DNA of 64,000 nt, from the NCBI GenBank assembly GCA_963712245.1, contig CAVQHE010000004.1, positions 34,602 through 98,601 of the forward strand, read 5' to 3'. The notes under the pieces are model-generated. The model saw only the letters and a list, made by a program, of their open reading frames with translations. It was not told the origin of the DNA and did no database searches. A program made the translations under genes and the position numbers. Origin of the DNA: an uncultured Actinomycetota bacterium (GTDB taxonomy: Bacteria > Actinomycetota > Actinomycetes > Actinomycetales > Demequinaceae). Below are positions 14,226 to 60,772 of the stretch, piece by piece; within the stretch, counting starts at the first letter, position 1, and each line of letters opens with the position of its first letter.

Positions 14226-14276
14226 GGGGTGACCCTACGTCACACCCGCCGAAGTCGCGTCTGTAGGGTGGGACCC

Positions 14277-15105
14277 GTGACGTCGACGGACAGCGTGCCG
14301 GCCGAGGACGAGCGACGAACGATCGCCGCGTTCTTCGACGTCGACAACACGATCATCCGCGGCGCGAGCGCGTTTCACATCGCGCGCGGCCTCCGGCGGC
14401 GCGGCTTCTTCTCGCGGCGCGACTTGGTCCGCTTCGCGTGGGAGCAACCCAAGTACCTGACGTTCGGCGAGAGCCCCGGCAGATGACGACGTGCGCGCCG
14501 AGGCGCTGTCGATCATCAAGGGGTGGTCCGTCGCGGAGATGGCCTCGATCGGCGAAGAGGTGTACGACGAGGTCCTCGCGATGCGGATCTTCCCGGGACC
14601 AAGGCGCTCCTCGACGAACACGTCAGCAAGGGCCACGAGGTGTGGCTCGTCACCGCGTCGCCCGTCGAGATCGGGCGAATGATCGCGCGGCGCCTCAGGG
14701 CGACCGGCGCGCTCGGCACGATCGCCGAGCACAAGCGCGGGCACTACACCGGCGCGCTCGTCGGCGACCTCATGCACGGCGAGGCCAAGGCGCGCGCGGT
14801 GCGCACGCTCGCCGAGGAACGCGGGCTCGACCTCACCCACTCGTACGGATACGGGGACTCGCTGAACGACGGCCCCTGCTCGAGGCGGTCGGCAACCCGT
14901 GCGCGATCAATCCCGACATTCGGCTTCGGCGCTACGCGAAGAGGCGCGGGTGGGACCTGCGCGACTTCCGGGGCGCAAGGGCAACGGGAGGCGGAGCATC
15001 GCCGCGCGGACGAGCGCGGGCGCGCTCTGGGCGTTCCTCGCGGTTCTCCGTGGCCTCAAGCGGACGCTCGTCGGAGCGATCCGGGGGCTATTCCGACGCC
15101 GATAG
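14277..15105 (+). pseudogene. HAD-IB family hydrolase (SerB-like), four frame changes
   Basis: FFDVDNTIIRGAS (DxDxT) is in frame 0. GWSVAEMASIGEEVY is in frame 1. HEVWLVTASPVEIG...GYGDSLNDGP is in frame 0. LLEAVGNPCAINPD is in frame 2. The hydrophobic tail ALWAFLAVLRGL is in frame 1 and ends at 15105. Confidence 0.75.
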
Positions 15106-15123
15106 CGTCGGGCGTACGGGTCC

Positions 15124-15222
15124 CTACTTCTTGTTGCGGCGCTGGTGGCGCGTCTTGCGAAGGAGCTTGCGGTGCTTCTTCTTCGACATGCGCTTGCGGC
15201 GCTTCTTGATGACGGAACCCAC
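15124..15222 (-). CDS. 30S ribosomal protein bS22 (32-aa actinobacterial micro-protein)
   Basis: Hand translation gives [37 protein letters not shown]. This is below the 60-aa cut-off of the ORF track. Confidence 0.85.
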   Translation of the reverse strand: [32 protein letters not shown]

Positions 15223-15302
15223 GGAACCTACATTGTTCGATGCTGGACGTCTGGCGGACTCGGCGCGCCCGGCAAGACGGGCCCGCGAGACGGGACCTTA
15301 GC

Positions 15303-15547
15303 CTACAGCGCCCGCGGCGCGCACCGTCGTCCTCGGCCGGGTAGCCGCCCGCGAGGGCGGCGTGCTCCATGAAGACGTCGACGGCCTGCTGGGGCACGCG
15401 GAAGGAGCGGCCGAAGCGCACGGCGGGCAGGTCGCCCGCGTGGACCCAGCGGTACACGGTCATGCGCGACACGCGCAGCATGTCGGCTACCTCCGCGACC
15501 GTGAGGAAGTCTGCGGGGCGCGGCGCCGTCTGCCATGTCTGTTTCAC
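15303..15547 (-). CDS. Excisionase-family helix-turn-helix DNA-binding protein, the conserved neighbour of bS22
   Basis: The HTH is LTVAEVADMLRVSRMTVYRWVHAGDLPAVRFGRSFRV. The GTG at 15547 follows GAAGGGG. The 3' end is uncertain: the listed frame runs on over bS22, while a 1-nt shift stops at 15303. Confidence 0.6.
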
Positions 15548-15710
15548 CCCTTCGATGACGTTCGCCCACGATATCGGCCGAACGTGTTCCCCACTGTAGG
15601 GGCGTTGTGACAGTTGTGAAGAGCAGGAAGGGGGCGGATGGCGCACATCACGGCGGCCACGGAGCGTGGCACAGTAGGACGTGGGCGCGTCGGCGCCGTG
15701 GAGGAGTGGG

Positions 15711-17088
15711 ATGGAGAGACTTCGTCGCGCGCGCGCCGCCGCGAGCGAGCTCTTCGACCGCGTCGCCCTTGCATTCGCCCGCGCGGCTCGCGATCGGCGC
15801 GTTCGGGCTCGTCGTCGCGGCCGTCACCGCGCTTCTCGTGCTCCCGGTGGGCACCGCGTCCGGGGTGCGCGCGCCGTTCGTCGACGCGCTGTTCACGGCC
15901 ACGTCCGCCGTGTGCGTCACGGGGCTCGATCACGGTCGACACCGGCACGTACTGGTCGGTCACCGGACAGGCCATCATCATCGTCGCGATCGCCGTCGGC
16001 GGCCTCGGGATCATGACGCTCGCCTCGGTCCTCGGCCTCGCCGTGTCGCGCCGCCTGGGCCTGACCCAGCGCATCCTCGCGGCGGGCGAGAGCCGCGCCT
16101 CGGGGCTCGGCGAGGTCCGGTCGATGCTCCGCACGATCGTCGTCATCTCCGCGATCGTCGAGGTGGGCATCGCCGGGGTCCTGTTCCCGCGGCTGCTCCA
16201 CCACGGGTTCAGCATGCAAGCACGCGGCGTGGCATTCGATCTTCTACGCCATCTCCTCGTTCAACAACGCGGGCTTCGTTCCGACGGACAGCGGGCTCGC
16301 CCCGTTCGCGAACGACGTGTGGGTGCGCGCGCCGATCGCCCTCGGCGTCTTCATCGGCGCGCTCGGCTTCCCCGTCTACCTCAACCTCGTCCGCCATTGG
16401 CGCCGCCCGCGCGAGTGGTCGCTGCACACCAAGCTGACGCTCCTCATGGTTCTCGTACTCACGGTCATCTCGACGATCGCTGCTCGCGATCTTCGAGTGG
16501 AACAACCCCAAGACGCTCGGCCAGCACAGCTCGCGAACCCGACTCTCCGAGGTCTTCTTCATCGGGATCAACCAGACGATCCGGCGGCTTCGCGGCCGTC
16601 CAGCACTCCGGCATGCACGAGCACACGTGGCTCTCGAGGACGTGCTGATGTTCATCGGCGGCGGCTCGGGAGGCACGGCCGGCGGCATCCGCGTCACGAC
16701 GCTTCGCGGTGCTGGTGCTCGCCATCTGCGCCGAGGCGCGCGGCCGTCGCGACGTCGAGGCGTTCGGCAAGCGCATCGGCACCGAGGTCGTGCGCGTCGC
16801 CGTGTCCGTCACGCTCGTCAGCCTGTTCATCGTCTTCTCGGCACCGGGATCGTCACGGCCCAGACCGGGATGCGCCTCGACCAGGTGCTCTTCGAGGTGG
16901 TCTCCGCGTACGCGACGTGCGGCCTCTCGACCGGCATCACCCCCTATCTGCCCGCGTCCGCGAAGGTCACCATCACTATCCTGATGTTTGTCGGCCGTCT
17001 CGGGAGCGTCACCCTCGTGGCAGCCCTCGCGCTCAACCGACAGCGGCGCGTCATCCGGTACCCGTCAGAAAGGCCGATCATTGGCTAA
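15711..17088 (+). pseudogene. trkH: Trk/Ktr-type potassium uptake membrane subunit TrkH, at least 6 frame changes
   Basis: TrkH-like segments alternate between the three plus frames. They include FVDALFTATSAVCVTGL, GQAIIIVAIAVGGLGIMTLASVLG, FYAISSFNNAGF, LMFIGGGSGGTAGGIRVTT and VVSAYATCGLSTGITP. Confidence 0.8.
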
Positions 17089-17744
17089 CAACGACACCGC
17101 CAACAGCGTCCTCGTCATCGGGCTCGGCCGCTTCGGCTCCGCGCTCGCCGACACGCTTGGACAACCTCGACATCGAGGTGCTCGCCGTCGAGCGCGACCC
17201 CGACCTCGTCGAGCGATGGTCCTCGCGCCTGCCCGTCGTCGAGGCCGACGCGTCCGACCCGCGCGCGCTCGAGCAGATCGGCGCGAAGGACTTCCACTCC
17301 GCCGTCGTCGGCGTCGGCACCTCGCTCGAGGCGTCCGTGCTCATCACGGGCAACCTCGTCGACATCGCCATCCCGGAGATCTGGGCGAAGTCCATCAGCG
17401 CCGAGCACGCCCGCATCCTCACCCGCATCGGTGCGCACCACGTCGTGCTGCCGGAGACGGACTCGGGGCGTCGCGTCGCGCACATCGTCGGCGGCAAGAT
17501 GCTCGACTACATCGAGGTGGAGGACGGCTTCACCATCGTGAAGATGCGCCCCCCGCAGGAGACCCACGACTTCACGCTCGAGCAGCTCGACCTGCCGGAC
17601 AAGTACGGCGTCCAGGTCATCGGCGTGAAGTCGCCCGGCGTCGAGTTCGAGTACGCGACCCCGGAGACGCGCATCCACAAGGACGACCTGCTCGTGGTCG
17701 CCGGCGACAGCGAACTGCTCGACCGCCTCGCCCAGCGTCCCTAG
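17081..17744 (+). CDS. trkA: Trk/Ktr potassium uptake NAD-binding (RCK) subunit, one frame break near 17158
   Basis: The TTG start overlaps the trkH stop. VLVIGLGRFGSAL (Rossmann GxGxxG) is in one frame. The remainder, from DIEVLAVERDP to DDLLVVAGDSELLDRL, is in ORF 16317..17744. Confidence 0.8.
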
Positions 17745-38684: not shown

Positions 38685-38809
38685 CGCGACTCCCTTTCCG
38701 CGCGTCGACGGCGTACCCGATCGACGCCCCCAAAGTAGCGCCATCCTACGGCGTGGTCGCCACGGCGCGTCGGCGCGGCCGCCCGCGCCCGCGATACACT
38801 GGCCGCGAA

Positions 38810-38914
38810 CGACAGGGGAGCGCCTCCGTCCACCGAGGACGGGCCAGGGCGCTGAGAGTGCGGATCGCCGCAGACCCTCGAACCTGATCCGGCTAGCACC
38901 GGCGTAGGGAGTCG
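38810..38914 (+). promoter_or_regulatory. TPP (THI-box) riboswitch with an SD-sequestering expression platform
   Basis: The aptamer reads CGAC-AGGGGAGCGCC...GGGCGCUGAGAG...ACCCUCGAACCUGAUCCGGCUAGCACCGGCGUAGGGA-GUCG. Downstream, CCUCCU (38925-38930) can pair with the SD AGGAGG (38935-38940), 8 nt before the ATG at 38948. Confidence 0.9.
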
Positions 38915-38947
38915 AGACTCGTCCCCTCCTGAGAAGGAGGCTGAACC

Positions 38948-43279: not shown

Positions 43280-45230
<1,951 letters not shown>

Positions 45231-45904: not shown

Positions 45905-46839
45905 GTGGCAAGCCAGGATTGGTTCAACAAGGACTTCTACGCCGTGCTGGGCGTCCCGAAGGATGCGGACGACGCGGCGATCAAGAAGGCGTATCGCAAG
46001 CTCGCGCGCACGCTCCACCCCGACGCCAACCCCGGCGACGCGAAGGCGGAGGCGAAGTTCAAGGACGTCGGCGAGGCGTACGCGGTGCTCTCGGACAAGG
46101 AGCAGCGCCAGCAGTACGACGCCGTGCGCGCCATGGGCGGGGGCGCGCGCTTCCAGCCCGGCGGCGCCGGATTCGAGGACGCGTTCAGCGGGATGTTCGG
46201 CGGCGGCGGGCGTCGGACAGCCGGGGCGCCCCGGGGTTCGAGGATCTGCTCGGCAACCTCTTCGGGGGCGGCGGGTTCTCCATGGGCCCTCAGCCCGGCG
46301 GCGACCTCGCCGCCGCGACGGAGGTGACGTTCCGCCAGGCCGCCGAGGGCGCGACCGTCCGCCTCAACGTCGGCGGAAGGAACGTGTCGACGCGACTGCC
46401 TGTCGGCGTGCGGGACGGGCAGCGGATCCGACTGCGCGGCAAGGGCCAGCCGAGCCCCAACGGCGGTCCCCCCGGCGACCTCGTCCTCACCGTCCACGTG
46501 GCGAAGCATCCCGTGTTCACCGCAGACGGATCCAACCTCCGCGTCCGCGTCCCCGTCACGTTCATGGAGGCGGCGCTCGGGGCGCAGGTCGAGGTGCCGA
46601 CTCTCGACGGCGGCAACGTGCGCGTCAAGATCCCAGCCGGCACGGCGTCGGGCACGACGCTCCGCGTGAAGGGCAAGGGCCTCGCCGGAAAGAAGGGCAC
46701 GGGCGACATGCTCGCCACCGTGGAGGTTCGCGTGCCCACGAAACTCAGCTCGAAGGCGAAGGACGCGCTCGCCGCGATCGCGGACGAGCTCGGCGACGAG
46801 GCCGTTCGCGCCGAGCTTTACCGGAAGGCGACGGCATGA
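45905..46839 (+). CDS. dnaJ: J-domain co-chaperone (DnaJ/CbpA type; no Cys-rich zinc-finger region seen); one frame break near 46205
   Basis: The J domain is [36 protein letters not shown]. The C-terminal substrate-binding domains are in ORF 45919..46839. Confidence 0.85.
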
Positions 46840-47543: not shown

Positions 47544-48721
47544 ATGCCCATTGACGTCGCGCGAGTCCGCGCGGAAACGCGCGCCGCGGATACGGTGCTC
47601 CACCTGAACAACGCGGGCACCTCGCTGCCCCCGGCGATTGTCATGGACACCGTCCACGAGCAGCTCCGTGCCGAGGAGGTGTTCGGCGGCTACGAGGCGG
47701 AGGCGCTAGCCGAGCCCGCGTTGGAGCGCGCCTACGAGTCCATCGCGACGCTCGTCGGAGGGTCGGCGAACGAGGTCGCGTTCTTCGGCGGGGCCACGGC
47801 CGCGTGGCAGACGGCGCTGCTGTCGCTCCCGTGGAAGCGCGGCGACCGGATCCTTACGTCCAGGCGGAGTACCCCTCGAACGTCTACGCGTACGCGTACC
47901 TCAAGGACCGCTACGGCGTCCGCACCGAATACATCGCCGACGACGAGCACGGGCAGATCGACGTCGACGCACTCCGCGAGGCGATCGACGAGAAGACCCG
48001 ACTGATCTCCGTCACCCACGTGCCAACGTACGGCGGCCTCGTCAATCCCGTCGCGCGCGTCGGCGAGGTGGCGAAGGACGCCGGGATCCTCTACCTCGTC
48101 GACGCCTGCCAGAGCGTCGGCCACCTCCACCTCGACGTCGACGAGATCGGATGCGACCTTCTCACCGGCGCCGGCCGCAAGTATCTGCGCGGGCCGCGGG
48201 GGACGGGGTTCCTCTGGGCGAGCCCTCGGGCGATCGAGGTGATGAAGCCCCCGCTCGCCGACCAGCACTCGCAGACGTGGACGACGCTCACGTCGTTCGA
48301 ACCGGTACCCGGCGCGAAACGCCTCGAGACGTTCGAGCGGTCGATCGCTCTCCAGCTGGGTCTGGGCGCCGCCGCGCGGTACGCGACGGCGCTCGACACG
48401 ACGGTGATCGAGGCGCGAGTCTGCGCCCTCGCCGCGGCGTTCCGCGGCATGCTCTCGGAAATCCCCGGCGTGACGATCCGGGACCGGGGCGAGCGTCTGT
48501 GCGGGATCGTCACCTTCACGATCGAGGGATTCTCCGCTGAGGAGGTGCGCGTCGCGCTACGCGAACACCACATCAACACGTGGATCGTGACGCGCGCCGC
48601 GTCGATGCGCGACTTCGCCGCTCGTGGCCTCGACGAGGTGACCCGCGCTTCCGTGCACTACTACAACACCGAGGACGAACTCGCCCGCACCGCCGACGTG
48701 CTCCGCACGCTCGTCGAGTAG
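47544..48721 (+). CDS. Class V aminotransferase / cysteine-desulfurase-like PLP enzyme; one frame break near 47858
   Basis: LHLNNAGTSLPP is in frame 0. SVTHVPTYGGLVNP, LVDACQSVGHL and GAGRKYLRGPRGTGFL (PLP Lys region) are in ORF 47804..48721. Confidence 0.8.
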
Positions 48722-48830: not shown

Positions 48831-49600
48831 CTACCGCTGCAACGTGTTCAAGAGTTCGACGGCGTACGCGTGCGTCTCGGGGAGCGCCTCGACCCACACC
48901 CGGGGCGGCTGACGCCACAGGTTGCCGACGCGCATGCTGGTCGCGCGCTCGTCGATGTGCTCGCGGAGCGCCGCGATGCCGGAGCCGAGGGCCTCGCCGC
49001 GGCGAACCAGCACCCCGTAGAGGCCGTCGCCGAGGTGCGCCATCGGGTGGCCGTCGCCGTACGCCGCGACCAACGCCGAGCCGACCGCCGCGTTGCGCGC
49101 GATGCGCTGCCACACGTCCGAGTCCACGACCGAGACGTCGACGACGACGAGCGCGTGCGTGTCGGCGACGCGCTCGTCCCGGCGCCTAGCCGCGCCGTAG
49201 ACCTCGACGAGACGCTGCGAGAGGTAGTCGACCGTGCCGAGCCCCGACTCGGGTCGGTCATCGTGCCCAGCGAGCCTCCAGCCGGGTTCCCGCCGGTCCA
49301 TCCCTCGCACAGCGCGCGGACGGAACGGATGGGGGTGTCCTCGTATCCTGCGGCGCGGAACACGATCGCGAGGTCGTCGATCGCCTCGGTGATTCCGACG
49401 CCCGCGTTGGCGCGAGCCGCGCCAAGCCTTGACGCGGAGGGAGCGGTGTCGAGTCCGGCTTCGATCGCCTCGACAAGGGCGTCCACCGCAGGCGTGTACC
49501 AGTCGCCCGGGCGGAGCCACACAGTCTGCACACTGGCCGCGCGCCACTCCTCGGTGAGGGCACTCGCGGATCCAGATCGACTCACATCGACGTCCGTCAT
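48831..49600 (-). CDS. Hypothetical protein with a degenerate GGDEF-like C-terminal domain; one frame break near 49290
   Basis: The N-terminal half is in ORF 48848..49600 and the C-terminal half in ORF 48831..49604. THALVVVDVSVVDSDVW...AHLGDGLYGVLV resembles a GGDEF fold in which GGDEF is replaced by GDGLY. This is my visual alignment only. Confidence 0.45.
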
Positions 49601-49776
49601 GCATGATGAGAGAGATTCGTCACTCCGTTATGACGCCGTTATCTCGAGAATTCTCCGAAACCTTCGCGAATCCGGCGCCGAAGGTGTGACAAACGTCGCA
49701 CTTCACCAGGTTGCGTACCGTCGCGCGCGACCAGGGACCATTAGATATGGGCGTCAGAAGCCCGATCGGAGCATCG

Positions 49777-52608
49777 ATGGACAACGCAAGGGTCGGTCTC
49801 TGGACCGACCAATCCAGCGACGCTGAACTCATCGCCGGCGTGCGCGCCGGGGAGTCGGCGGCGTTTGGCGTGCTGTTCGAACGCCACGGCTCCGCAGCGC
49901 GGCGCGTCGCCGCCATGTACTCCGGCGTCCCGTCGGACGTCGACGACATCGTGTCCGAGGCCTTCGCCCGCGTCCTCAAGGCGCTGCAGCAGGGCGACGG
50001 TCCCGACATGGCGTTCCGCGCCTATCTCTTCACCGTCGTCCGACGCACCGGCCTCGACACGATCGCCAAGGGCAAGCGGACGCGCCTCGACGAGGACATG
50101 ACGACGCACGACAAGGCGATCGGCTACGAGAAGCCGAGCGACGAGCCGGCCCTCGACAGCTTCGAGCAGGGGGTCGTCGCCGACGCCTTCAAGTCGCTCC
50201 CCGAGCGGTGGCAGGTCGTGCTGTGGTACACGGAGATCGAGAAGAAGTCGCCGGGCGAGGTCGCCCCGCTTCTCGGGCCTGAGCCCGAACGGCGTCGCCG
50301 CGCTCGCCTATCGCGCGCGCGAGGCGCTCCGCCAGGCGTACCTCCAACAGCACCTCGCCACGACCGACAACCTCGACTGCCTCGCCGTGTCCGAACACCT
50401 CGCCGCATACGTCCGCGGCGGGCTGACCAAGCGAGAGCACACGAAGGTCGAGGGCCACGTCAAGCGTTGCGACCGCTGCGCCGCGCTCGTGAGCGAACTC
50501 GAGGACGTCAACCGCGGGCTCCGCGCGGTGATCGCCCCGCTCTTCCTCGGCTTGATCGGCGTCGGCGCGCTCGAGACCGAGCCTCCCGATCGGCGGGGTC
50601 GGCGCCGGCAACGTCGCGGACGCGGTGCCGCTGGCGGCCGGAGGGGCTGGCGGGGTTGCGGGCGGAGTGGCCGCGGGCGCGGGTGCGGGCACGGTCGCGG
50701 GACTGAGCGGCGTCTTCGCGCGTATCGCCTCGTTCGGACACGGCGGAACCGTGTCGAGCACGGCGAGCACGGGCTTCCTCGCGAACACCTTCGGATCCGG
50801 CTCCGGGATCCTCACGGGTTTCGCGGCGACCGTCGGCGTGGCGGCGCTAGCCGTCGCCTCCGCCGGTATTGTCGGCACGCTCGGCTTCCACGGCGGCGCT
50901 CCCGCGGCGGACGACCCGTCCGGCACGGTACAGCTCTTCATCGGGGCCGCCCCGCGCTCGACACCACCGATCTCCCCGTCTACGTCCCCGACCTCACGGG
51001 TGGGTCCGACGCCCCGGCGACGCCCCCGAGCCGCGGCTCGAGTTCGGCGAGCTCGACTCCGGTCGGCGACTGGGTTCAGGGCGGACGGGTTCGACGGGCG
51101 GTACGGGTTCGACGGGCGGTACGGGTTCGACGGGCGGTACGGGTTCGACGGGCGACACGGACGACGTCACCCTCGAGCTCTACGCGGGTGGACTCAGCTA
51201 CATCGAACTCGCGCGGACGTCGCCCTCGATCCCGATTCGCGTGTCGAACACGGGGGCGGACGACTCGCAGGCGGTCACCGTGGTCGTCGTCCCGCCCGCG
51301 GGCGTCACCTTCGTCGGCCCGTCCGGCGGCGGCGTCGGCGCCAACGCCGCGACGGCGGACCGCCTGGCGGCGTGGCTCGGATTCGCCTCGGGATCGATGG
51401 CCGTGGGCGATTGGCTGTGCGACATCTCCGACACCCAGGCGACCTGCGTCATCTCCAGCGTTCCCGCGGGCACCGTCGAGTCGCTCAACCTCGGAGTCTC
51501 GGTGACCGGAACGCTCTCGACGGGAGCCGTGACCCAATTCACCGTCACCGACACCACCGGTTACTCGACAAGCCGCTCCATCCGCACGGGCCTGGCGCCG
51601 GCCGAGCGCAACGGCGACCTCCTCTACGCGGGCGAGGGCAACCTCGGCACCGCCATCGCCGGCGGATACACGATGTCGTGCGACCAGACCGATCCCAAGT
51701 GCCAGAAGGCGATGGACTTCAACGGGAACGCCGTCAAGTCGGAGAACAACAACAACGAGTGGGACATGCAGGAGGTCAACAACGAGGGTGGGACGCGCAA
51801 CTCCGCCTCGACGACCCTCACCATCCCGACCGACGCCGAGGTCAAGGCCGGGTTCCTCGTGTGGTCCGCGAACCACGGCCCCTCCGAAGGATTCACCGAC
51901 GCCACGAACGTCGCCCGCGTGCGACCCCCGGGCGCCTCGTCGTACATCGAGGTCGCGGCGGATTCGGTCTCGACCTGGACCGATCCGGGCGGTCGGACGT
52001 ACTACCAGTCGCGCGCCGACCTCACGTCGCTCATCCAGCAGTACGGAGGCGGCTCATGGGCGGTCGCGGACATCGCGGTCTCCGACGGGCGCGCCGACCC
52101 CAACCCGTCGTACTACGCGGGATTCGCGCTCACGGCGGTGTACGACCAGGCGATCCTGCCCAAGAGCAGCGTCGCCGTATACAGCGGCGCCGATCCCGTG
52201 ACGAAGGACGACGAGGCCGACTACACGTTCGCGACCGACGGAGAGAGCGACGTCGACGTCTCGGTGATCGCGTGGGAGGGCGACAAGGGGATCGACGGCG
52301 ACACCCTGACGCTCGACGGCGAGAAGATGACGCCGGAGCACACCACGAGCGGCGGGGCGATTTCGACCGGCGACAAGGACAACGCCTTCGACTCGACGGC
52401 ATTCGGGTCCGGCGCCGCGAACTCCCTCGGGACGGACGCGAAGGACTTCAAGACGGAAACCGTCGACGCGGGCGACCACACGCTCGTGGCGGCGACCGAC
52501 AACGACAACTACGCCGTCGGCCTCGTCGTGGTCCAGACGACGCCCACGGACGACACGTCCTCCGCCGACGACACGTCCTCGGCCGACGGCGCGTCGAGCG
52601 ACGACTAG
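49777..52608 (+). CDS. ECF sigma factor fused to a zf-HC2 anti-sigma motif, TM segments and a large extracytoplasmic domain. It appears to be one long gene, with at least 4 frame breaks between 50275 and 51080.
   Basis: Sigma region 2 (DIVSEAFARVLKAL...YLFTVVRRTGLD) and region 4 (WQVVLWYTEIEKKSPGEVAPLL / SPNGVAALAYRAREALRQAYL) are present. These run without a stop into HVKRCDRC (50456-50479, HxxxCxxC). A TM segment AVIAPLFLGLIGVGAL follows, then a Gly/Ala-rich segment, a second hydrophobic stretch and about 520 aa of beta-rich domain ending at 52608. Confidence 0.55.
51085..51156 (+). repeat. 18-bp tandem repeat x4 (ACGGGTTCGACGGGCGGT) encoding a (GSTGGT)n linker
   Basis: There are three perfect copies and one 16/18 copy, read directly from the sequence. 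They are in frame within the sigma-fusion ORF (…TGSTGGTGSTGGTGSTGGTGSTGDT…). Confidence 0.9.
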
Positions 52609-52617
52609 CCGCCGGCG

Positions 52618-53610
52618 CTATCCGCTCTTCTTCGTCGCCTGCGCGTTGACCTCGTACGACGTGTTCGTCGCCTCGAAGAAGTTCACCAACTGAAGCGTGT
52701 CATTCGCCGTGGCCATCCATTTGGCCGGGTTCGACACGTTGTAGTGCGGCTCGAACCCGAGCTCCTCGAGGCGGCGGTCGGCGAGGTATTTCACGTACTG
52801 GTTCACGTAGTCGGCGTTGAGCCCCAGGATCCCCGAGGGCAGGAGGTCGCGGTTGTACTGCTCCTCCATCTCGACGGCACCGAGGATCATCTGGCGGATC
52901 TCCTCGGCGAACTCGGGGGTCTGCAGATCCTCGTTCTCCTCGAGCACGGTGAGGATGAGGTTGATGCCGAACTGGAGGTGGAGCGACTCGTCGCGGATCA
53001 CCCAGTCCATGAGGGAGCCGAAGTTCCGCAGCAGGTTCCGCTGGCGGAAGCTCAGGGCGACCATGAAGCCCGAGTAGAACCAGATGCCCTCGAGGATGAT
53101 GTTGTAGGCGATGAGGTTGCGAATGAAGTCCTTCTTGCCCTCCGTCGTGGAGATGTCGAGGGTCTCCTCCGTCATCCGCTTGATGAAGCGGACCTCGAAC
53201 TCCTCCTTCTTCGCCATCGACGGGACGGAGACGTGGGACTCGTAGGCGGACTCGCGATCGATCGGGAACGTCTCGAGGACGTATTCGAACGACATGCAGT
53301 GGTTCGCCTCCTCCCACATCTGCTTGGCGAGGTAGAGGTGGCATTCGGGCGCGTTGATGTACGGGTACACCCCGAAAGCGAGCGCCTTGTTGACGAGTAG
53401 CTCGTTGGGGTTGAAGTACGACATGAGGAAGGTGACGGCGTGCTTCTCCTCGTCCGTCATCTTCTTGAAGTCGCTTAGGTCCTCGCCCAACTGGATCTCG
53501 TTGGGGAACCACGTGTTCGCGACGGCCTGGTCGTACAGGTCCATCGCCCAGGGATACGTGATGGGCTTGAGGAGCAGTCCGTCCTTGATGCCCGTGCCGA
53601 GAATGGCCAT
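52618..53610 (-). CDS. nrdB: Ribonucleotide reductase small subunit with class Ic (R2c, Phe-for-Tyr) signatures
   Basis: In WEEANHCMSFEYVLETF, Phe occupies the radical-Tyr position (H+4). In FNPNELLVNKAL, Glu occupies the first metal-ligand position. ILEGIWFYSGF and IRDESLHLQFG are also present. The protein closely parallels my recollection of Chlamydia trachomatis R2c. Confidence 0.9.
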   Translation of the reverse strand: MAILGTGIKDGLLLKPITYPWAMDLYDQAVANTWFPNEIQLGEDLSDFKKMTDEEKHAVTFLMSYFNPNELLVNKALAFGVYPYINAPECHLYLAKQMWEEANHCMSFEYVLETFPIDRESAYESHVSVPSMAKKEEFEVRFIKRMTEETLDISTTEGKKDFIRNLIAYNIILEGIWFYSGFMVALSFRQRNLLRNFGSLMDWVIRDESLHLQFGINLILTVLEENEDLQTPEFAEEIRQMILGAVEMEEQYNRDLLPSGILGLNADYVNQYVKYLADRRLEELGFEPHYNVSNPAKWMATANDTLQLVNFFEATNTSYEVNAQATKKSG

Positions 53611-53638: not shown

Positions 53639-56470
53639 TTACTGGCAGGACTCGCACTGCAGGCGCTCCATGGGGTCGACGGGGCACGCGACCCCGTCCA
53701 CCTCGTCGGTGTCTCCGTCGGGGCCCGCGTCCGCGGTCTGCTCGGTGATGGGAAGCTGCGTCCGGCCAGCAGCCGAGTACGCCTCCGCGAACGCGCTGGC
53801 GACCACCGTCGCAGGCCCGTCCTGCGGGGCCGACGGCGCGTCCGGGGCGGCGTCCGTCGCGGCGGCCCGAGCCGGTGGCGCCTCGGGCATCGGCTCGGCC
53901 GACACGACCTTGGGCGACGCGATATTGGAGGTCGGCTCGGCGGTGTCCGTCGAGCCGACCGGACCAGCCGAGGCGGCGGAAGACTTCGGCGTCAGGCCCC
54001 CGAAGCCCTTGCGGGCCGGCCGCGAGGCCGGGGAGGGCGACGAGGACTTCGCCGTTCCCGCCGAGCCCGTCGTGTTGATCCGCTCGGTCTTGTTGACGCG
54101 CACCGTCGACTGCTCGGCCGTGTGGCGCGGCTTCATGTGGAGGTAATACGTCGTCTTGACGCCGCGTTCCCACGCGGCGGAATACAGGTCCATCATCCCG
54201 TCGACGTCGCGCGACTCGAGGTAGATGTTCCGGCTGATCGCCTGGTCGATCCACTTCTGGGCGCGCGCCGCGACCTCGATGAACGCGTACGGCGAGAGCT
54301 GGAACGACGTCTTGTACACGTCCTGGAGGTGCTGCGGCACCTCGGGGATCTGGCCAAGGTCTCCCTGGACCTCGAGCAGGCGGTCGCGCACCTTCTCCCA
54401 CATGCCGATCTTCTGGAGGTCCTTCACCAGGTTCCGGTTGACCTCGAGGAACTTGCCGGACGAGGTGGCCCGGGAGAAGATCTGCGAGAACTGCGGATCG
54501 AAGCCCGGCGTCGTTCCCGCGACAAGCCCGATGGACGCGGTGGGGGCGACGGCCATGAGGGTCGCGTTGCGAATGCCGCCCTTCACCTTGTCGCGAAGCG
54601 CGTCCCAGTCCTGACGCGTGGTCCGGTTGACGGCGATCGGAACGCCGCGGTCGGCCTCCGTCGTCGCGATCGTGTCGAAAGGCACCAGACCCTTCGACCA
54701 ACCCGACCCCTCGAAGTTGCGGTAGGACCCGCGCTCGCGCGCGAGGTTCGCCGACTCGTCGATCGCGTGGTACGAGACGAACTCGATGATCTCGTCGATC
54801 AGGTCGTACGACTCCTCGGACTCGTACGCCAGCCCAAGCCGTTCGGCGATGTCGGTGAATCCCATGACGCCGAGCCCGATCGCGCGGTTCTCGCTGTTCG
54901 CGTGCTCCGACTCGGGGACCGACGAGAGCGTGATGTCCACCAGGTTGTCGAGCTGGCGCACCGCGAGGCGCGCCGACTCCGCCATGCGCGTCCAGTCGAT
55001 CTTCCCGTCCACGAGGTGCGTCGCGAGGTTGACGGACGCGAGGTTGCACACGGAGATGTTGTCGCGGTCCTGCGGCAGGCAGATCTCCGTGCAGAGGTTC
55101 GACAGGTGGATCGTGCCGGTGTTCGTGTTGAGGGCGCGGTTGTTGATCGTGTCCTTCCAGGTGAGCCACGGGTGCGACGTGGACTGGAGCATCACGAGGA
55201 TCGCCTTGTACTGCTCGCGCGCGCGCATCTTGCGGAACGTCCGCAGCTTGCCCGACTCGGCGAGTGCGACGTACTCCGCGTAGCGGGCGGAGAAGGCCGA
55301 GCCGGTGAGCTCGACGAGGTCCGGGGTCTCCGCGGGGTCGAAGAGGTACCAGTCCTGGTCGTCGCGGACGCGCTTCATGAACTCGTCGGAGATCCAGACC
55401 GCCGTGTTCGCGGTGCGGGTCCGGCGGTACGGGTCGCCGGAGTTCTGGCGCAGGTCGAGGAACTGCGTGAAGTCGAGGTGCCAGTTCTCCATGTAGAAGC
55501 ACAGCGCGCCGAACTTCTTGCCGCCGCGGCTGACGGCGCGCAGCGTCGAGTCGATGGTGTGCATGAACGGGATGGGGCCGGTGGACGTCGTGTTGTTCGA
55601 CCGGATCGGCGAACCCTCCGCCCGCAGTTTGGTGACGCTGAGGCCGATGCCGCCCGTGCCCTTCGTCAGCCACATCACGTCGCCGACCGTCTTGGCGATG
55701 TGGTCCATGTCGTCTTCCATCTGCATGACGAAGCAGTTGCTCAGTTGCGGGTACGACGTCCCGGCGTTCACGAGCGTCGAGCCGGCGGGGAGGTAGTCGA
55801 GCTTGGAGATCTTGTCGTAGAACTTGATCGCCACCTCGGTCGGGTTCTTCTCGTTGAGCGACAGCCCCATCGCGACGCGCATCCAGAAGTACTGCGGGAC
55901 CTCGAGCGGCTTGCCGTTGCGCCCGGTGATCATGTAGCGGTTGCGCATGGTGACGGTGCCGATGTACTTGAGGAGGTCGTCGCGCGTGTGGTCGATGGCC
56001 GCGGCGAGCGCGTCGAGGTCGAAAAGGGATTCGAGGCGCGCGTCGAGCAGCCCCTCCTCGACGGCGTCGCGAATGTAGCCCGGGAAACGCGCCTGGTGCA
56101 GAAGCGCGAGCTCGAGGTCGGACTCGTAGTTGCCGAGCACGCGCTTGGCGATCACCTTGCGGAGAAGGCGCGCGGCGATCACGTCGAAGTCGGGGTCTTC
56201 CTTGACGTTCTGGATGGCGACGCCGATCGCGGCCTCGTCGAGCTGCTCGGTCGTGATGCCGTCGAAGAGCGTGATGGCGAGCTCGGACGCGACCTGCGTG
56301 ACCTTGGAGATCTTGTCGTCGAGGCCCTCCGCGGCGCGTTCGATCGCGCGGTTGATGCGGTCGGCGTTGTACGGCTCGCGCGAGCCGTCGCGCTTGGTTA
56401 CCTGGATACCGGTGTACGCCGGGACGACCTCGCTGGCGTCGGGCTGATGGGTCGGCTCAGTAATGGTCAC
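53639..56470 (-). CDS. nrdA: Ribonucleotide reductase large subunit (class I) with an ATP-cone and a long low-complexity C-terminal linker
   Basis: The ATP-cone is VTKRDGSREPYNADRINRAIERA and the active site is LSNLCTEI. About 150 aa of Ala/Pro/Ser-rich sequence separate the core from the terminal CPVDPMERLQCESCQ redox tail. The 943-aa frame is intact. Confidence 0.95.
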   Translation of the reverse strand: MTITEPTHQPDASEVVPAYTGIQVTKRDGSREPYNADRINRAIERAAEGLDDKISKVTQVASELAITLFDGITTEQLDEAAIGVAIQNVKEDPDFDVIAARLLRKVIAKRVLGNYESDLELALLHQARFPGYIRDAVEEGLLDARLESLFDLDALAAAIDHTRDDLLKYIGTVTMRNRYMITGRNGKPLEVPQYFWMRVAMGLSLNEKNPTEVAIKFYDKISKLDYLPAGSTLVNAGTSYPQLSNCFVMQMEDDMDHIAKTVGDVMWLTKGTGGIGLSVTKLRAEGSPIRSNNTTSTGPIPFMHTIDSTLRAVSRGGKKFGALCFYMENWHLDFTQFLDLRQNSGDPYRRTRTANTAVWISDEFMKRVRDDQDWYLFDPAETPDLVELTGSAFSARYAEYVALAESGKLRTFRKMRAREQYKAILVMLQSTSHPWLTWKDTINNRALNTNTGTIHLSNLCTEICLPQDRDNISVCNLASVNLATHLVDGKIDWTRMAESARLAVRQLDNLVDITLSSVPESEHANSENRAIGLGVMGFTDIAERLGLAYESEESYDLIDEIIEFVSYHAIDESANLARERGSYRNFEGSGWSKGLVPFDTIATTEADRGVPIAVNRTTRQDWDALRDKVKGGIRNATLMAVAPTASIGLVAGTTPGFDPQFSQIFSRATSSGKFLEVNRNLVKDLQKIGMWEKVRDRLLEVQGDLGQIPEVPQHLQDVYKTSFQLSPYAFIEVAARAQKWIDQAISRNIYLESRDVDGMMDLYSAAWERGVKTTYYLHMKPRHTAEQSTVRVNKTERINTTGSAGTAKSSSPSPASRPARKGFGGLTPKSSAASAGPVGSTDTAEPTSNIASPKVVSAEPMPEAPPARAAATDAAPDAPSAPQDGPATVVASAFAEAYSAAGRTQLPITEQTADAGPDGDTDEVDGVACPVDPMERLQCESCQ

Positions 56471-57247: not shown

Positions 57248-57337
57248 GGTGACGTGTCCGAGCGGCCTAAGGAGCACGCCTCGAAAGCGTGTGTGGGGGC
57301 AACTCCACCGTGGGTTCAAATCCCACCGTCACCGCCA
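57248..57337 (+). tRNA. tRNA-Ser (anticodon CGA), CCA encoded
   Basis: The acceptor stem GGTGACG/CGTCACC, anticodon loop CT-CGA-AA, long variable arm and T-arm GTGGGTTCAAATCCCAC are all present. Confidence 0.9.
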
Positions 57338-58548: not shown

Positions 58549-58636
58549 TGGCGGAGGATGGGGGATTCGAACCCCCGAGGGCTTGCACCCAACACGCTTT
58601 CCAAGCGTGCGCCATAGGCCACTAGGCGAATCCTCC
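58549..58636 (-). tRNA. tRNA-Ser (anticodon GGA), CCA encoded
   Basis: The reverse complement reads GGAGGATTCGCCTAGTGG...ACGC-TT-GGA-AA-GCGT...GGGGGTTCGAATCCCCCATCCTCCGCCA, with a long variable arm. Confidence 0.9.
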
Positions 58637-58720: not shown

Positions 58721-58816
58721 GAAGGACCCCTCACGCGGCGTCACCTCGCGGAACTCCCCCAGGGCAGAAATGCAGCAAGGGTACGCGGGCTCTGGCGGGT
58801 GCGTGGGGGGTCCTTC
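58721..58816 (+). ncRNA. ffs: Small (4.5S-type) signal recognition particle RNA
   Basis: It forms a long hairpin in which GAAGGACCCC pairs with GGGGUCCUUC. The apical domain IV motif is CCCAGG-GCA-GAAA-UGC-AGCAAGGG (GNRA tetraloop flanked by AGG/AGCA loops). It sits in the usual position upstream of dnaX. Confidence 0.8.
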
Positions 58817-58850
58817 GCGTCTCGGGGCGACCTGCCCTAGAGTCAATCGT

Positions 58851-60772
58851 GTGAACCAAGCCCTCTACCGCCGCTACCGGCCGGACACGTTCGCCGAGGT
58901 CGTGGGCCAGGAGCACGTCACCGAGCCGCTCATGCACGCGCTCCGGACCGACCGCGTCGCCCACGCATACCTCTTCTCCGGACCCGCGGGGTTGCGGCAA
59001 GACGACGTCCGCGCGCATCCTCGCCCGGTGCCTCAACTGCGCCCAGGGGCCCACCGATACGCCGTGCGGGACGTGCGACTCGTGCGTCGAGCTCGCGACC
59101 GGGGGGACGGGATCGGTCGACGTCGTCGAGATCGACGCAGCCTCGCACAACGGCGTCGACGACGCCCGGGAGCTCCGCGAGCGCGCGGCCTTCGCGCCCG
59201 CGCGGGACGCGTACAAGGTCTTCATCCTCGACGAGGCGCACATGGTGACCCCTCAGGGGTTCAACGCCCTCCTGAAGCTCGTCGAGGAGCCCCCGCCGCA
59301 CGTGCGCTTCATCTTCGCGACGACGGAGCCCGACAAGGTGATCGGCACGATCCGCTCGCGTACCCACCACTACCCGTTCCGCCTCGTGCCTCCGGCGGTG
59401 CTCACCGACTACCTCGCCACGCTGTGCGAGGCCGAGGGGACGACGGTCGCCGCGGGAGTCCTGCCGCTCGTCGTGCGCGCCGGGCGGCGGCTCCGTGCGC
59501 GACTCCCTGTCCGTCCTCGACCAGCTCATGGCCGGCTCAGGGGACGACGGCATCACCTACGAGCGCGCGATCGCGCTTCTGGGGTTCACGGACGCGGCGC
59601 TACTCGACGACGCGGTGGACGCGCTCGCGGCGGGAGACGGCGCGTCCCTCTTCGCCGTGGTCGAGCGCGTGATCCAGACGGGGCACGAGCCGCGCCGATT
59701 CGTCGAGGATCTGCTCGAGCGCCTGCGCGACCTCCTCATCCTCGCGGCGGCCGGCGAGGCCGGGCTCAAGGCCCTCGGCGCGGTACCGCTCGACCAGCTG
59801 GACCGGATGCGCGACCAGGCCCGCCGCCTCGGCCTCGAGCGCGCGTCGCGCGCCGCCGACCGCGTCAACGACGCCCTGACGTCGATGGTCGGGGCGACGT
59901 CGCCGCGGCTGCACCTCGAGTTGCTGTGCGCGCGTCTTGTCGCGGGCGAGAGCCCCGTTCGCCTCGAACCGGCGTCGACGGGCGCAGCCGACGCGGCCGA
60001 GGCGGACTCCCCCGCCCGGCCCGCGAGCCCGCTTGCGGCCCTCGTCGTCGCCAACCGCGAGCCCGCCTCGCCGTCATCGGCGACGCCCACCGGCGACGAG
60101 GACGCTCCTCCTCCGGCCGCCGAGAAGCCGTCGCCTCCCGACGACGCGACCACCGATGACGCGGCGACCGACGAGGACGACGCCGCCTTGGAACCCGCGC
60201 CCGCGTCTGAGTCGACGCCGGAGCCGGAGCCGGCCACGGAAACCCCGCCGCCGAGCGCGGAGGCGGCCGTCGACCTCCCGGCCCCCGACGCCGCCTCCGG
60301 CGACGCCGAACTCCTGCGACGTCGGTGGTCGGAGGTGCTCGGGACCCTCGAGCGTCGCCGCGTGACGTGGGTGCTGGTCAGCCAGAGCGCGCAGGTCGCG
60401 CGCGTCGACGGCGACACCGTCGTCCTCGCATTCTCGAGCCCGCCGCTCGCGGAGCGCTTCAACGCCGGTCAGCACGCCGAGAACGTCGCGCTCGCCATCC
60501 GCGAGACGCTCGGGCTCCAGGTGCGCGTCGCCGGTGAGCCCGAGAACGGGTCGGCCGCGCCGCCGCCCACGCCCCGGTCCGCGCCAGCCCCGACCCGGAC
60601 CGATCCGTCTCCCGCGCCCGCGCCGGAGCCCGAGCCGAAAGCGCCGCCGCGCCGTTCCGCGGCGACCGAGGACGAGGCGTCCGACGGCGACGCTCCCGCT
60701 CCCGACGCCGACCTCACCGGGGCCGACGCCGTGGCGAAGATGCTCGGCGGGACCGTCGTCGACGACGAGTAG
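58851..60772 (+). CDS. dnaX: DNA polymerase III subunit gamma/tau; two frame breaks (about 58990 and about 59483)
   Basis: [23 protein letters not shown] is in frame 0. Walker A GCGKTT appears only after removing one T in [35 protein letters not shown] and TRSRTHHY are in frame 1. [14 protein letters not shown] onward is in frame 2, after an extra G in CCGGGCGG. Confidence 0.9.

What the first reader, a model, noticed from the sequence alone, without database searches (positions are those of the whole stretch)
49777..52608. About 940-codon reading frame fusing an ECF sigma factor, a zf-HC2 anti-sigma motif, TM segments and a large extracytoplasmic domain
Seen in the sequence: sigma regions 2 and 4 are followed, with no stop codon in the corrected frame, by HVKRCDRC (the HxxxCxxC motif of ZAS anti-sigma domains). 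A hydrophobic helix comes next, then a Gly/Ala-rich stretch, a second hydrophobic stretch, a (GSTGGT)4 linker and about 520 aa of beta-rich sequence. That sequence starts with an Ig-like module (IPIRVSNTGADDSQAVTVVVVPPAGVTF). A second module has patterns such as KAGFLVWSANHG, YYAGFALTAVYD and VIAWEGDKGIDGDTLTLDG, which I cannot assign to a named family.

Established knowledge: ECF sigma factors with fused C-terminal regulatory extensions exist, and an actinobacterial group with a fused ZAS domain and TM helices has been catalogued. How a membrane-tethered sigma factor is released or acts remains poorly understood.

Inference: this would be a one-component trans-envelope signalling protein whose sensor domain is uncharacterised.

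Caveat: the continuity depends on repairing at least 4 frame breaks between 50275 and 51080. The locus could instead be two or three genes (sigma, anti-sigma, surface protein), or a pseudogene.
Basis: partly seen in the sequence, partly recalled or inferred. Interest (0 to 1): 0.65.

Follow-up and report, generated by a model that had tools for sequence, protein, structure and literature searches.

The report
Membrane-tethered sigma/anti-sigma fusion, assembly-broken
This is one gene for a known actinobacterial type of signalling protein, a sigma factor fused to its own zinc anti-sigma domain, a membrane anchor and an outside sensor domain; its four frame breaks are most likely sequencing errors, because similar one-base errors also split essential genes nearby.

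Summary
Window 49777-52608 (+) carries ECF sigma regions 2 and 4, a zf-HC2/ZAS motif (HVKRCDRC, 50456-50479), two hydrophobic helices around a Gly/Ala-rich stretch, a (GSTGGT)4 linker, an Ig-like domain and a roughly 320-aa beta module. The coding frame changes four times.

The fusion is real. Uninterrupted orthologues of 900-1100 aa exist throughout Demequina (best hit 934 aa, 82% identical, same gene neighbourhood). Versions of 1200-1400 aa occur in Cellulomonas.

The frame breaks are probably assembly indels. Similar one-base indels split dnaK, dnaJ, dnaX (twice), an aminotransferase and the upstream neighbour. A trkH-like gene changes frame five times in 1.3 kb.

The architecture belongs to the catalogued class of actinobacterial ECF sigma factors with a fused ZAS-transmembrane extension (ECF48/52/53; SCO4117 is the only studied member). 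I could not assign the exact group.

The C-terminal module is a distant DUF3344 relative. It also forms the N-terminal head of secreted DUF11-repeat surface proteins, one of which ends in a sortase-type anchor.

New here: a divergent gene for a degenerate GGDEF-like protein lies directly upstream in 76 of 79 related loci.

Verdict: new member of a known kind, modest interest.

The parts
49777..50274 (+). Segment A (frame 1): start codon, sigma region 2 (49873-50079) and the first part of sigma region 4 (from 50179).
   Evidence: It is 95.9% identical in amino acids to orthologue P0001 residues 1-170.
50272..50281 (+). Frame break 1: one extra base (CTCGGGCC) inside sigma region 4.
   Evidence: MAFFT against L001. 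The Pfam r4_2 and TIGR02937 matches run across the break only after repair.
50276..50575 (+). Segment B (frame 2): the rest of sigma region 4 (to 50329); the ZAS / zf-HC2 domain (50378-50482) with Cys at 50378-50380 and HVKRCDRC at 50456-50479; and the conserved hydrophobic helix 1 (50516-50575).
   Evidence: The four zinc-ligand positions C201/H227/C231/C234 are invariant in 34 homologues.
50574..50580 (+). Frame break 2: one extra base (GAGACCGAG against GAGA-CGAG in the orthologue).
50577..50954 (+). Segment C (frame 3): Gly/Ala-rich low-complexity stretch and the hydrophobic transmembrane helix (about 50799-50894).
   Evidence: hydropathy. The AF2 model of the orthologue is disordered here except for a helix at residues 355-368.
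50950..50958 (+). Frame break 3: one missing base (CCCCG-CGCTCG).
50954..51082 (+). Segment D (frame 2): extracytoplasmic Ser/Thr/Pro/Gly-rich linker.
   Evidence: It aligns with the orthologue's sequence LDTNDLPVYVPD....
51060..51085 (+). Frame break 4: a net -1 shift at the start of the tandem repeat. The exact position is ambiguous.
51079..51154 (+). An 18-nt tandem repeat, 4.3 copies, encoding (GSTGGT)4.
51166..51594 (+). Ig-like beta-sandwich domain (DUF11/CARDB type) carrying one invariant Cys pair.
   Evidence: AF2 model with pLDDT 90.6. DUF11, CARDB and TIG hits in homologues. Invariant C85/C94.
51595..52563 (+). All-beta module of about 320 aa, DUF3344-like, which is the presumed sensor head.
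52606..52608 (+). Stop codon of the fusion gene.
49601..49776 (.). Shared divergent intergenic region with blocks conserved across Demequinaceae: TTATGACGC (49628-49636), GTGTGACAAAC (49684-49694) and CAGGGACCATTAG (49732-49744).
   Evidence: No function is assigned.
48831..49600 (-). Divergently transcribed conserved partner gene of 256 aa: an N-terminal helical part plus a degenerate GGDEF-like domain. In this window it is itself split by a 1-nt deletion at about 49253.

Best explanation
Window 49777-52608 is one gene. It is the orthologue of a 900-1100-aa protein conserved in Demequinaceae, with longer versions in Cellulomonadaceae and relatives.

The N-terminus is a complete ECF sigma factor (sigma2 plus sigma4). 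A class-I zinc anti-sigma (ZAS) domain follows directly. After that come a very conserved hydrophobic helix, a disordered Gly/Ala-rich tether, a transmembrane helix and a low-complexity linker. Outside the cell there is a DUF11-type Ig-like stalk domain and a DUF3344-like beta-sandwich head.

The four frame breaks are most probably single-base indel errors of the assembly, not biology.

Inferred mechanism: at rest, the ZAS domain binds sigma2 and sigma4 of the same chain and blocks binding to RNA polymerase, while the protein stays at the membrane. A signal perceived by the external head, or damage to it, triggers cleavage at or near the membrane. The anti-sigma part is then degraded and the sigma factor is freed. 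This follows the proposal for ECF52 and the demonstrated case of IutY. The freed sigma factor probably drives its own promoter and possibly the conserved divergent GGDEF-like gene.

Shown here: domain composition, the single-ORF state of orthologues, pervasive indels in the window, extracytoplasmic relatives of the head domain, and conserved gene pairing. Inferred: inhibition in cis, proteolytic release, the ligand and the regulon.
For: Single gene. There are 1417 homologues at E<=1e-5. The best is 934 aa, 82% identical over 98% of the query, and dozens of Demequina and Cellulomonas proteins are annotated as one sigma-70-family protein. The same position between the 256-aa gene and nrdB holds one 934-aa ORF in three independent metagenome contigs. 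Most of the Demequina isolate genomes fetched show one ORF running from the sigma motif to the C-terminal module.

Assembly errors. One-base indels relative to the syntenic contig split dnaK, dnaJ, a class-V aminotransferase, the 256-aa gene and dnaX (twice), with 87-98% amino-acid identity on both sides of each break. A trkH-like gene changes frame five times in 1.3 kb. Most breaks lie in short G/C runs. GC3 stays at about 0.85-0.9 or higher in most of each corrected frame, less clearly in the Gly/Ala-rich stretch, and no in-frame stops occur.

Sigma and ZAS. C-x25-H-x3-C-x2-C is invariant in 34 homologues. In the AF2 model of the orthologue, the sigma part superposes better on anti-sigma-bound sigmas (1or7, 8z6g, 5wuq, 4cxf; rmsd 9.6-12 A) than on holoenzyme-bound ECF sigmas (6dv9, 9m9e; rmsd 21-25 A). 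This is weak support for a closed state.

Outside location of the C-terminus. There are two invariant Cys pairs. The same module follows signal peptides in P0197, P0204 and P0242, and P0204 ends in an LGDTG-TM-RRR anchor.

Literature. ECF48/52/53 are described as sigma factors with fused ZAS-transmembrane extensions, expected to be activated by proteolysis (PMC8999054). For SCO4117, the paper reports that the sigma domain alone can modulate development (PMC5826349).
Against: No reads or same-strain contig could be found to prove that the indels are errors.

Four breaks in 2.8 kb is somewhat more than the rate in the compared neighbouring genes predicts (1.2 expected, Poisson P about 0.04). However, the trkH-like gene shows an equally dense cluster.

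Two hydrophobic helices would place the C-terminus inside the cell. The model therefore needs helix 1 not to span the membrane, or a third membrane pass. No transmembrane predictor was available.

Nothing here shows proteolysis, zinc binding, sigma-ZAS contact, the ligand or the target promoter. No clear ECF-type promoter was recognised upstream.
Confidence: 0.75

Rival explanations
1. Genuine pseudogene. The four frameshifts are real mutations and this organism has lost the fusion protein. Break 1 alone would remove the DNA-binding helix of sigma region 4.
For: Four breaks fall within 0.8 kb, slightly more than the window-wide rate predicts. The same gene is also split in some other assemblies: L006, L018, L020 and L066.
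Against: The same kind of one-base indels split essential genes (dnaK, dnaX) and others in this window, so frameshifts here carry no information about gene decay. Codon bias is intact in most of each corrected frame, no stop codon has accumulated, and amino-acid identity to the orthologue is 79-96% in the flanking segments.
Confidence: 0.1
2. Two or three separate genes (sigma factor, ZAS anti-sigma, surface protein) that merely abut.
For: ORF lists show separate ORFs at 49711-50706, 50387-51505, 50625-52649 and 50869-52608.
Against: These ORFs overlap extensively, and their out-of-frame tails are Arg-rich nonsense. Sigma region 4 itself is cut by break 1. Orthologues in the same neighbourhood and in most of the Demequina isolate genomes fetched are single ORFs.
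Confidence: 0.02
3. Same single protein, different mechanism. The sigma domain is activated without proteolysis. Either the ZAS domain responds to redox or zinc, as in RsrA, or a conformational signal crosses the membrane. The long disordered Gly/Ala tether (60-200 aa in homologues) would let the sigma domain work while still anchored.
For: All four ZAS zinc ligands are invariant, with RsrA-like spacing (the RsrA comparison is from my own knowledge). A variable, disordered tether lies between the anti-sigma domain and the transmembrane helix. Conformational activation is known for other ECF extensions, ECF41 and ECF238 (PMC8999054).
Against: The reviews expect proteolysis for ECF48/52/53 (PMC8999054). 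The membrane-tethered fusion IutY is released by Prc and RseP (PMC8999054). A large external head would have no role in a purely cytoplasmic redox switch.
Confidence: 0.15

Closest known systems
ECF52 sigma factor SCO4117 of Streptomyces coelicolor (PMC5826349) and the ECF48/52/53 class (PMC8999054)
   Same: Actinobacterial ECF core followed in one chain by a zf-HC2/ZAS domain, hydrophobic or transmembrane helices, a low-complexity linker and an extracytoplasmic domain. No separate anti-sigma gene. Proposed release by proteolysis.
   Different: SCO4117 carries a Pro-rich linker and an NPCBM-type carbohydrate-binding module and lies downstream of atrA. This protein has a Gly/Ser/Thr linker, a DUF11-type Ig domain and a DUF3344-like head, with no NPCBM hit, and is paired with a divergent GGDEF-like gene. 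Its ECF group could not be assigned.
RsrA-SigR and other two-protein ZAS anti-sigma / ECF sigma pairs (for example RsiW-SigW, PDB 5wuq)
   Same: An H-x3-C-x2-C motif plus an upstream Cys at RsrA-like spacing. The modelled sigma2-sigma4 arrangement resembles anti-sigma-bound states.
   Different: Here sigma and anti-sigma are covalently linked and membrane-tethered. Redox sensitivity is unknown.
IutY of Pseudomonas putida (ECF243 sigma/anti-sigma fusion; PMC8999054)
   Same: A single polypeptide with an N-terminal ECF sigma, a transmembrane segment and an external sensor part. Activation by regulated proteolysis has been demonstrated.
   Different: IutY is a FecI/FecR-type system working with a TonB-dependent receptor in a Gram-negative envelope. 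It has no ZAS domain and an unrelated sensor domain.
DUF3344 (PF11824) N-terminal heads of predicted fibrillar adhesins, cluster 23 of PMC9210967
   Same: The C-terminal module gives sub-threshold DUF3344 matches in homologues. Its relatives sit at the tip of DUF11-repeat, signal-peptide-bearing surface proteins, one of which has a sortase-type anchor.
   Different: Here the head is at the C-terminal end of a membrane-anchored regulator, not at the N-terminus of a wall-anchored fibre. The window protein itself gives no Pfam hit. The function of DUF3344 is unknown (called 'ambiguous' in PMC9210967).
RsgI anti-sigma factors of Clostridium thermocellum (mentioned in PMC10766802)
   Same: A membrane anti-sigma factor whose external domain senses an extracellular polymer and signals by proteolysis.
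   Different: RsgI and SigI are separate proteins from a different sigma family, and the sensor domains are different.

Membership tests
ECF (group 4) sigma-70 factors | A sigma2 domain and a sigma4 domain, with no sigma3 or sigma1.1. | tested here: met
   PF04542 at E=7e-13. TIGR02937 sigma70-ECF scores 67.4 bits against a cut-off of 42.9 over aa 29-187. PF08281 scores 22.1 bits (cut-off 25.7) in the window product and matches in all 34 homologues at E<=0.05. This holds only after repair of break 1.
ZAS (zinc-binding class I) anti-sigma domain | An H-x3-C-x2-C motif with an upstream Cys or His ligand, and a zf-HC2 profile match. | tested here: met
   HVKRCDRC lies at 50456-50479. PF13490 scores 28.2 bits against 22.2. 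C201/H227/C231/C234 are invariant in 34 homologues.
ZAS (zinc-binding class I) anti-sigma domain | Binds zinc and sequesters its cognate sigma factor. | not testable with these tools
   There is only indirect support. The AF2 sigma part is closer to anti-sigma-bound than to holoenzyme conformations. No contact map was available.
ECF sigma factors with fused ZAS-TM extension (ECF48/52/53 class) | ECF core, ZAS and one or more transmembrane helices in one polypeptide; restricted to Actinobacteria; no separate anti-sigma gene. | tested here: met
   Orthologues are single ORFs. Nearly all named relatives are Actinomycetota; one MAG protein is labelled Brevundimonas. Hydrophobic helices lie at aa 247-266 and 341-372.
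ECF52 specifically (SCO4117 type) | Assignment by the ECF-group HMM or phylogeny of the sigma core. | not testable with these tools
   The ECF Hub models, the supplement of PMC7826278 and Huang et al. 2015 were not available.
ECF52 specifically (SCO4117 type) | A Pro-rich linker and an NPCBM-type carbohydrate-binding module at the C-terminus (PMC5826349). | tested here: not met
   No NPCBM or other carbohydrate-binding hit in the window protein. The linker is rich in Gly, Ser and Thr. The genomic context also differs: a divergent GGDEF-like gene instead of atrA (PMC5826349).
DUF3344 (PF11824) | A score at or above Pfam's gathering threshold (27.2 bits). | tested here: inconclusive
   The window module gives no hit. 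Homologues fall just below threshold: P0082 26.2 bits, P0242 26.8 bits, P0012 18.7 bits, and 3 of 34 family members at E<=0.05. It is therefore a distant relative, not a member by Pfam's criterion.
Pseudogene | Disabling mutations specific to the locus, with signs of relaxed selection. | tested here: not met
   One-base indels also occur in dnaK, dnaJ, dnaX, trkH and others. Codon bias is preserved in most of each corrected frame and there are no in-frame stops. That the indels are sequencing errors could not be proven without reads.

The most novel reading that the evidence does not exclude
The fusion and its almost invariably adjacent, divergently transcribed degenerate GGDEF-like gene form an undescribed two-gene signalling module. 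The module is conserved from Micrococcales to Pseudonocardiales. In it, an adhesin-type head (DUF3344-like, on a DUF11 stalk) reports surface contact or a cell-envelope or polymer ligand to a covalently tethered sigma factor. The GGDEF-like protein acts as the first target or as a co-regulator.
Probability: 0.25. Interest if true: 0.55.

Novelty: new member of a known kind. Interest (0 to 1): 0.3.

Why it matters
How membrane-tethered sigma factors with built-in anti-sigma domains are switched on is still largely untested. One member, SCO4117, has been studied genetically, and no ligand or protease is known.

This family offers a compact one-protein system in culturable Demequina and Cellulomonas. 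The sensor part models with high confidence and is related to adhesin heads. There is also a strictly conserved neighbouring gene that could serve as a reporter or partner.

For this particular window the practical message is different. Its sequence carries frequent single-base indels, so any pseudogene or split-gene call made from it is unsafe.

Tried and rejected
- **Source of the window.** An exact look-up of the window's NrdB and two metagenome scans with window-specific patterns, one allowing for the extra base at break 1, found nothing. The GTDB scan returned relatives at 80-87% nucleotide identity or less, not the window itself. The error hypothesis therefore rests on comparison with a congeneric contig.
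- **Fold assignment of the C-terminal part.** Neither the sequence nor an 18-sequence profile hit anything significant in PDB sequences. Foldseek with the 480-aa model and with the full-length orthologue model gave only generic multi-Ig or adhesin matches (integrin alpha legs, PrgB, MSCRAMMs) with TM-scores of 0.2 or less.
- **ECF group assignment.** The main text of PMC7826278 does not describe ECF48/52/53, its supplements are not held, and Huang et al. 2015 is not held.
- **Promoter.** The sigma-70 consensus scan found nothing upstream. An alignment of 20 upstream regions shows conserved blocks, but I could not fit them to a fixed -35/-10 pair or to the motif published for SCO4117, so I make no promoter claim.
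- **Programmed frameshifting.** Considered and rejected. There would be four shifts in both directions, with no slippery-site pattern, and orthologues lack them.
- **Read-through in frame 1.** Considered and rejected, because frame 1 has stops at about 50704 and 50848.
Full report

Yes. The window is about 70% G+C, so the third-codon-position G+C signal shows the coding frame clearly.

Three-frame translation and a GC3 frame plot show one continuous stretch of coding signal from 49777 to 52605 on the + strand. Its frame changes four times:
- frame 1 from 49777 to 50274
- frame 2 from 50276 to 50575
- frame 3 from 50577 to 50954
- frame 2 from 50954 to about 51082
- frame 1 from 51085 to the stop codon at 52606-52608

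Frame 1 has stops at about 50704 and 50848, so no single ORF exists. Joining the five segments gives a 943-aa product without internal stops.

The repaired product contains:
- Sigma70_r2 at aa 33-101 (E=7e-13)
- Sigma70_r4_2 at aa 135-184, running across the first break
- zf-HC2 at aa 201-235, above Pfam's cut-off
- the NCBIfam sigma70-ECF model, above its cut-off

HVKRCDRC lies at 50456-50479. Two hydrophobic stretches fall at aa 247-266 and 341-372. An 18-nt tandem repeat (4.3 copies, 51079-51154) encodes (GSTGGT)4. About 480 aa of beta-rich sequence follow.

**2. One gene or several?**

A search with the repaired product found 1417 proteins at E<=1e-5. The best is an uninterrupted 934-aa protein, 82% identical over 98% of the query. 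Many Demequina proteins of 900-1100 aa and Cellulomonas proteins of 1200-1400 aa follow. All carry Sigma70_r2 and nearly all zf-HC2, and those that carry a source name are mostly called 'sigma-70 family RNA polymerase sigma factor'.

The 934-aa protein sits on three independent metagenome contigs. Its neighbourhood matches the window: dnaK-grpE-dnaJ-hspR, a class-V aminotransferase, a divergent 256-aa gene, the fusion gene, then nrdB and nrdA on the other strand, and later dnaX and recR.

In a scan of one genome per species, most of the Demequina isolate genomes fetched show a single ORF running from the sigma motif through the ZAS motif to the C-terminal module.

**3. What are the frame breaks?**

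I compared the window gene by gene with the syntenic contig L001. One-base indels split the following genes, with 87-98% amino-acid identity on both sides of each break:
- dnaK, at about 43927
- dnaJ, at about 46231
- the aminotransferase, at about 47861
- the 256-aa gene, at about 49253
- dnaX, at about 58983 and about 59482

In the fusion gene the breaks are +1 near 50275, +1 near 50577, -1 near 50955 and a net -1 between 51060 and 51085.

Elsewhere in the window a trkH-like gene changes frame five times in 1.3 kb. A HAD-type phosphatase gene and a trkA-like gene also switch frame.

A free-living actinobacterium cannot have lost dnaK and dnaX. Most breaks lie in short G/C runs. Codon bias is undisturbed in most of each corrected frame. 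The most economical reading is that the assembly carries frequent single-base indel errors and that the fusion gene is intact in the organism.

Two caveats remain. Four breaks in 2.8 kb exceeds the 1.2 expected from the rate in the 13.8 kb of compared neighbouring genes (P about 0.04), although the trkH cluster shows that such local density occurs elsewhere in the window. I also found neither reads nor a same-strain contig to settle it. I put a genuine pseudogene at about 10%.

**4. Anatomy of the protein**

*Cytoplasmic part.* This is an ECF sigma core followed immediately by a ZAS domain. The four presumed zinc ligands (Cys201, His227, Cys231, Cys234 in the orthologue's numbering) are invariant in 34 homologues. 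From my own knowledge, their spacing equals that of RsrA.

AlphaFold2 models the orthologue's first 265 residues as helices with pLDDT 70-87. The zinc motif sits at the junction of the second and third ZAS helices. The third helix continues into the first hydrophobic stretch.

In the Foldseek output, the sigma part superposes better on anti-sigma-bound sigmas than on holoenzyme-bound ECF sigmas:
- anti-sigma-bound: sigmaE-RseA, AlgU-MucA, SigW-RsiW and CnrH-CnrY, with rmsd 9.6-12 A
- holoenzyme-bound: rmsd 21-25 A

This is weak support for a closed, self-inhibited arrangement.

*Membrane part.* The first hydrophobic helix (consensus IAPLVLG.LG.GAL..LP.GG) is far more conserved than transmembrane helices usually are. 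It is followed by a Gly/Ala-rich, disordered stretch of very variable length (about 60 to over 200 aa). A second, ordinary hydrophobic helix comes next.

In Amycolatopsis-type relatives the stretch between the two helices carries Lys and Arg. This favours a cytoplasmic location for that stretch and a single true membrane pass. I had no topology predictor, so the point stays open.

*Outside part.* The window's last 480 aa model with a mean pLDDT of 90.6. The model shows an Ig-like sandwich of about 140 aa followed by an all-beta module of about 320 aa. Each carries an invariant Cys pair.

Homologues hit DUF11, CARDB, TIG or NPCBM_assoc on the Ig part. Cellulomonas versions have several such domains.

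The 320-aa module has no Pfam, NCBIfam or PDB sequence match in the window protein. Several homologues, however, score just under the DUF3344 threshold (26.2 and 26.8 bits against 27.2).

A profile of the module finds 4572 representative proteins at E<=1e-3. In these it lies either at the C-terminus of sigma fusions or at residues about 40-370 of very large DUF11-repeat proteins. Three shorter relatives that I read (500-700 aa, each with DUF11) start with signal peptides, and one ends in LGDTG, a hydrophobic helix and RRRAG, which is a sortase-type anchor.

A published survey lists a DUF3344-overlapping cluster among N-terminal domains of predicted fibrillar adhesins, with 'ambiguous' function (PMC9210967). 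The sensor is therefore an adhesin-head-like domain on a short stalk, and it is extracytoplasmic.

**5. How it most likely works**

Reviews describe ECF48, ECF52 and ECF53 as actinobacterial sigma factors with a fused ZAS domain and one or two transmembrane helices. They are expected to be activated by proteolysis (PMC8999054).

For the only studied member, SCO4117 (ECF52), the authors report that the sigma domain alone can modulate development. They propose excision from the membrane by an unknown protease (PMC5826349). The unrelated fusion IutY is released by Prc and RseP (PMC8999054).

By analogy, I propose three steps. First, the ZAS domain inhibits the sigma domain in cis. Second, the external head senses a signal. 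Third, cleavage at or near the membrane and degradation of the anti-sigma part release the sigma factor. All three steps are inference.

The main mechanistic rival is activation without cleavage, through redox or zinc chemistry at the ZAS domain or through a conformational signal, with the long flexible tether letting the sigma domain act while anchored. I give that rival about 15%.

**6. A conserved partner**

The 256-aa gene transcribed divergently from the fusion gene is present in the same position and orientation in 76 of 79 related loci. These range from Demequina through Cellulomonas, Actinotalea, Cellulosimicrobium, Oerskovia, Sanguibacter and Luteimicrobium. Homologues at 27-33% identity occur in Amycolatopsis, Kibdelosporangium, Actinosynnema and Haloechinothrix.

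The gene product has no Pfam match. A profile of 13 members gives weak but consistent hits to GGDEF domains in the PDB: 7 of the 9 best, led by 7e6g at E=1.3e-3 and the degenerate GGDEF of FimX at 3.4e-3. The GG(D/E)EF position reads LGDGLY, so the domain is presumably inactive.

The shared intergenic region has blocks conserved across Demequinaceae (TTATGACGC, GTGTGACAAAC, CAGGGACCATTAG). I could not interpret them as a promoter.

SCO4117, by contrast, lies downstream of atrA (PMC5826349). This difference, together with the different sensor domain, suggests the present family is not the SCO4117 subgroup. The ECF group could not be assigned with the tools at hand.

**7. Comparison and novelty**

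The architecture is a known and catalogued kind, and public annotation already calls these proteins sigma factors. What is not in the literature I could search is twofold: the nature of this sensor head (DUF3344-like, shared with surface-fibre tips) and the near-universal pairing with a degenerate GGDEF-like gene.

I rate the finding a new member of a known kind, with interest 0.3. The most novel reading still open is a conserved two-gene surface-sensing module. I give it a probability of about 0.25 and an interest of about 0.55 if true.

For this window specifically, the practical conclusion is that its sequence contains many single-base indels, so split genes in it should not be read as biology.

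Noticed in passing
window 48831-49600 (-), and loci L004-L082 about 150-400 nt upstream of the fusion gene: A 256-aa protein with a degenerate GGDEF-like C-terminal domain (LGDGLY in place of GGDEF) is encoded divergently next to the sigma-ZAS-TM fusion in 76 of 79 related loci. These span Micrococcales and Pseudonocardiales. It has no Pfam family.
   Followed up: partly
window 49601-49776: The intergenic region has blocks conserved across 20 Demequinaceae loci: TTATGACGC (49628-49636), an A/T-rich palindromic block, GTGTGACAAAC (49684-49694; TGTGA-N6-TCGCA resembles a CRP-type site) and CAGGGACCATTAG (49732-49744). No function is assigned.
   Followed up: partly
window 43379-45224, 45905-46839, 47544-48721, 58851-60772: dnaK, dnaJ, a class-V aminotransferase and dnaX (twice) are each split by one-base indels relative to a congeneric contig. 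This indicates poor per-base accuracy across the whole window.
   Followed up: yes
window 14227-17741 (+): A HAD/SerB-like gene (2 frame switches), a trkH-like gene (5 switches in 1.3 kb, 15777-17081) and a trkA-like gene (1 switch) show the same problem. These were read directly from frame-wise translations.
   Followed up: partly
window 38804-38927 (+), 58722-58818 (+), 57248-57334 (+), 58552-58636 (-): Rfam matches above gathering score: a TPP riboswitch, the small SRP RNA and two tRNAs.
   Followed up: no
loci L006, L018, L020, L066: The orthologous fusion gene is also split, at different positions, in two uncultured-Actinomycetota MAGs and in the assemblies of Demequina sediminis NBRC 112286 and D. 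litorisediminis NBRC 112299. I did not examine whether these are errors or real.
   Followed up: no
loci L025, L027, L030: In these loci the ORF carrying the sigma and ZAS motifs stops roughly 170 aa after the conserved region-2 motif, and the loci lack the divergent GGDEF-like neighbour. This is possibly a distinct paralogous family.
   Followed up: no
window 53777-53953 (-), C-terminal tail of nrdA: The window's NrdA lacks 48 aa (four in-frame deletions of 12-54 nt) in the low-complexity tail relative to the 991-aa orthologue. The rest of the gene is intact and in a single frame.
   Followed up: no
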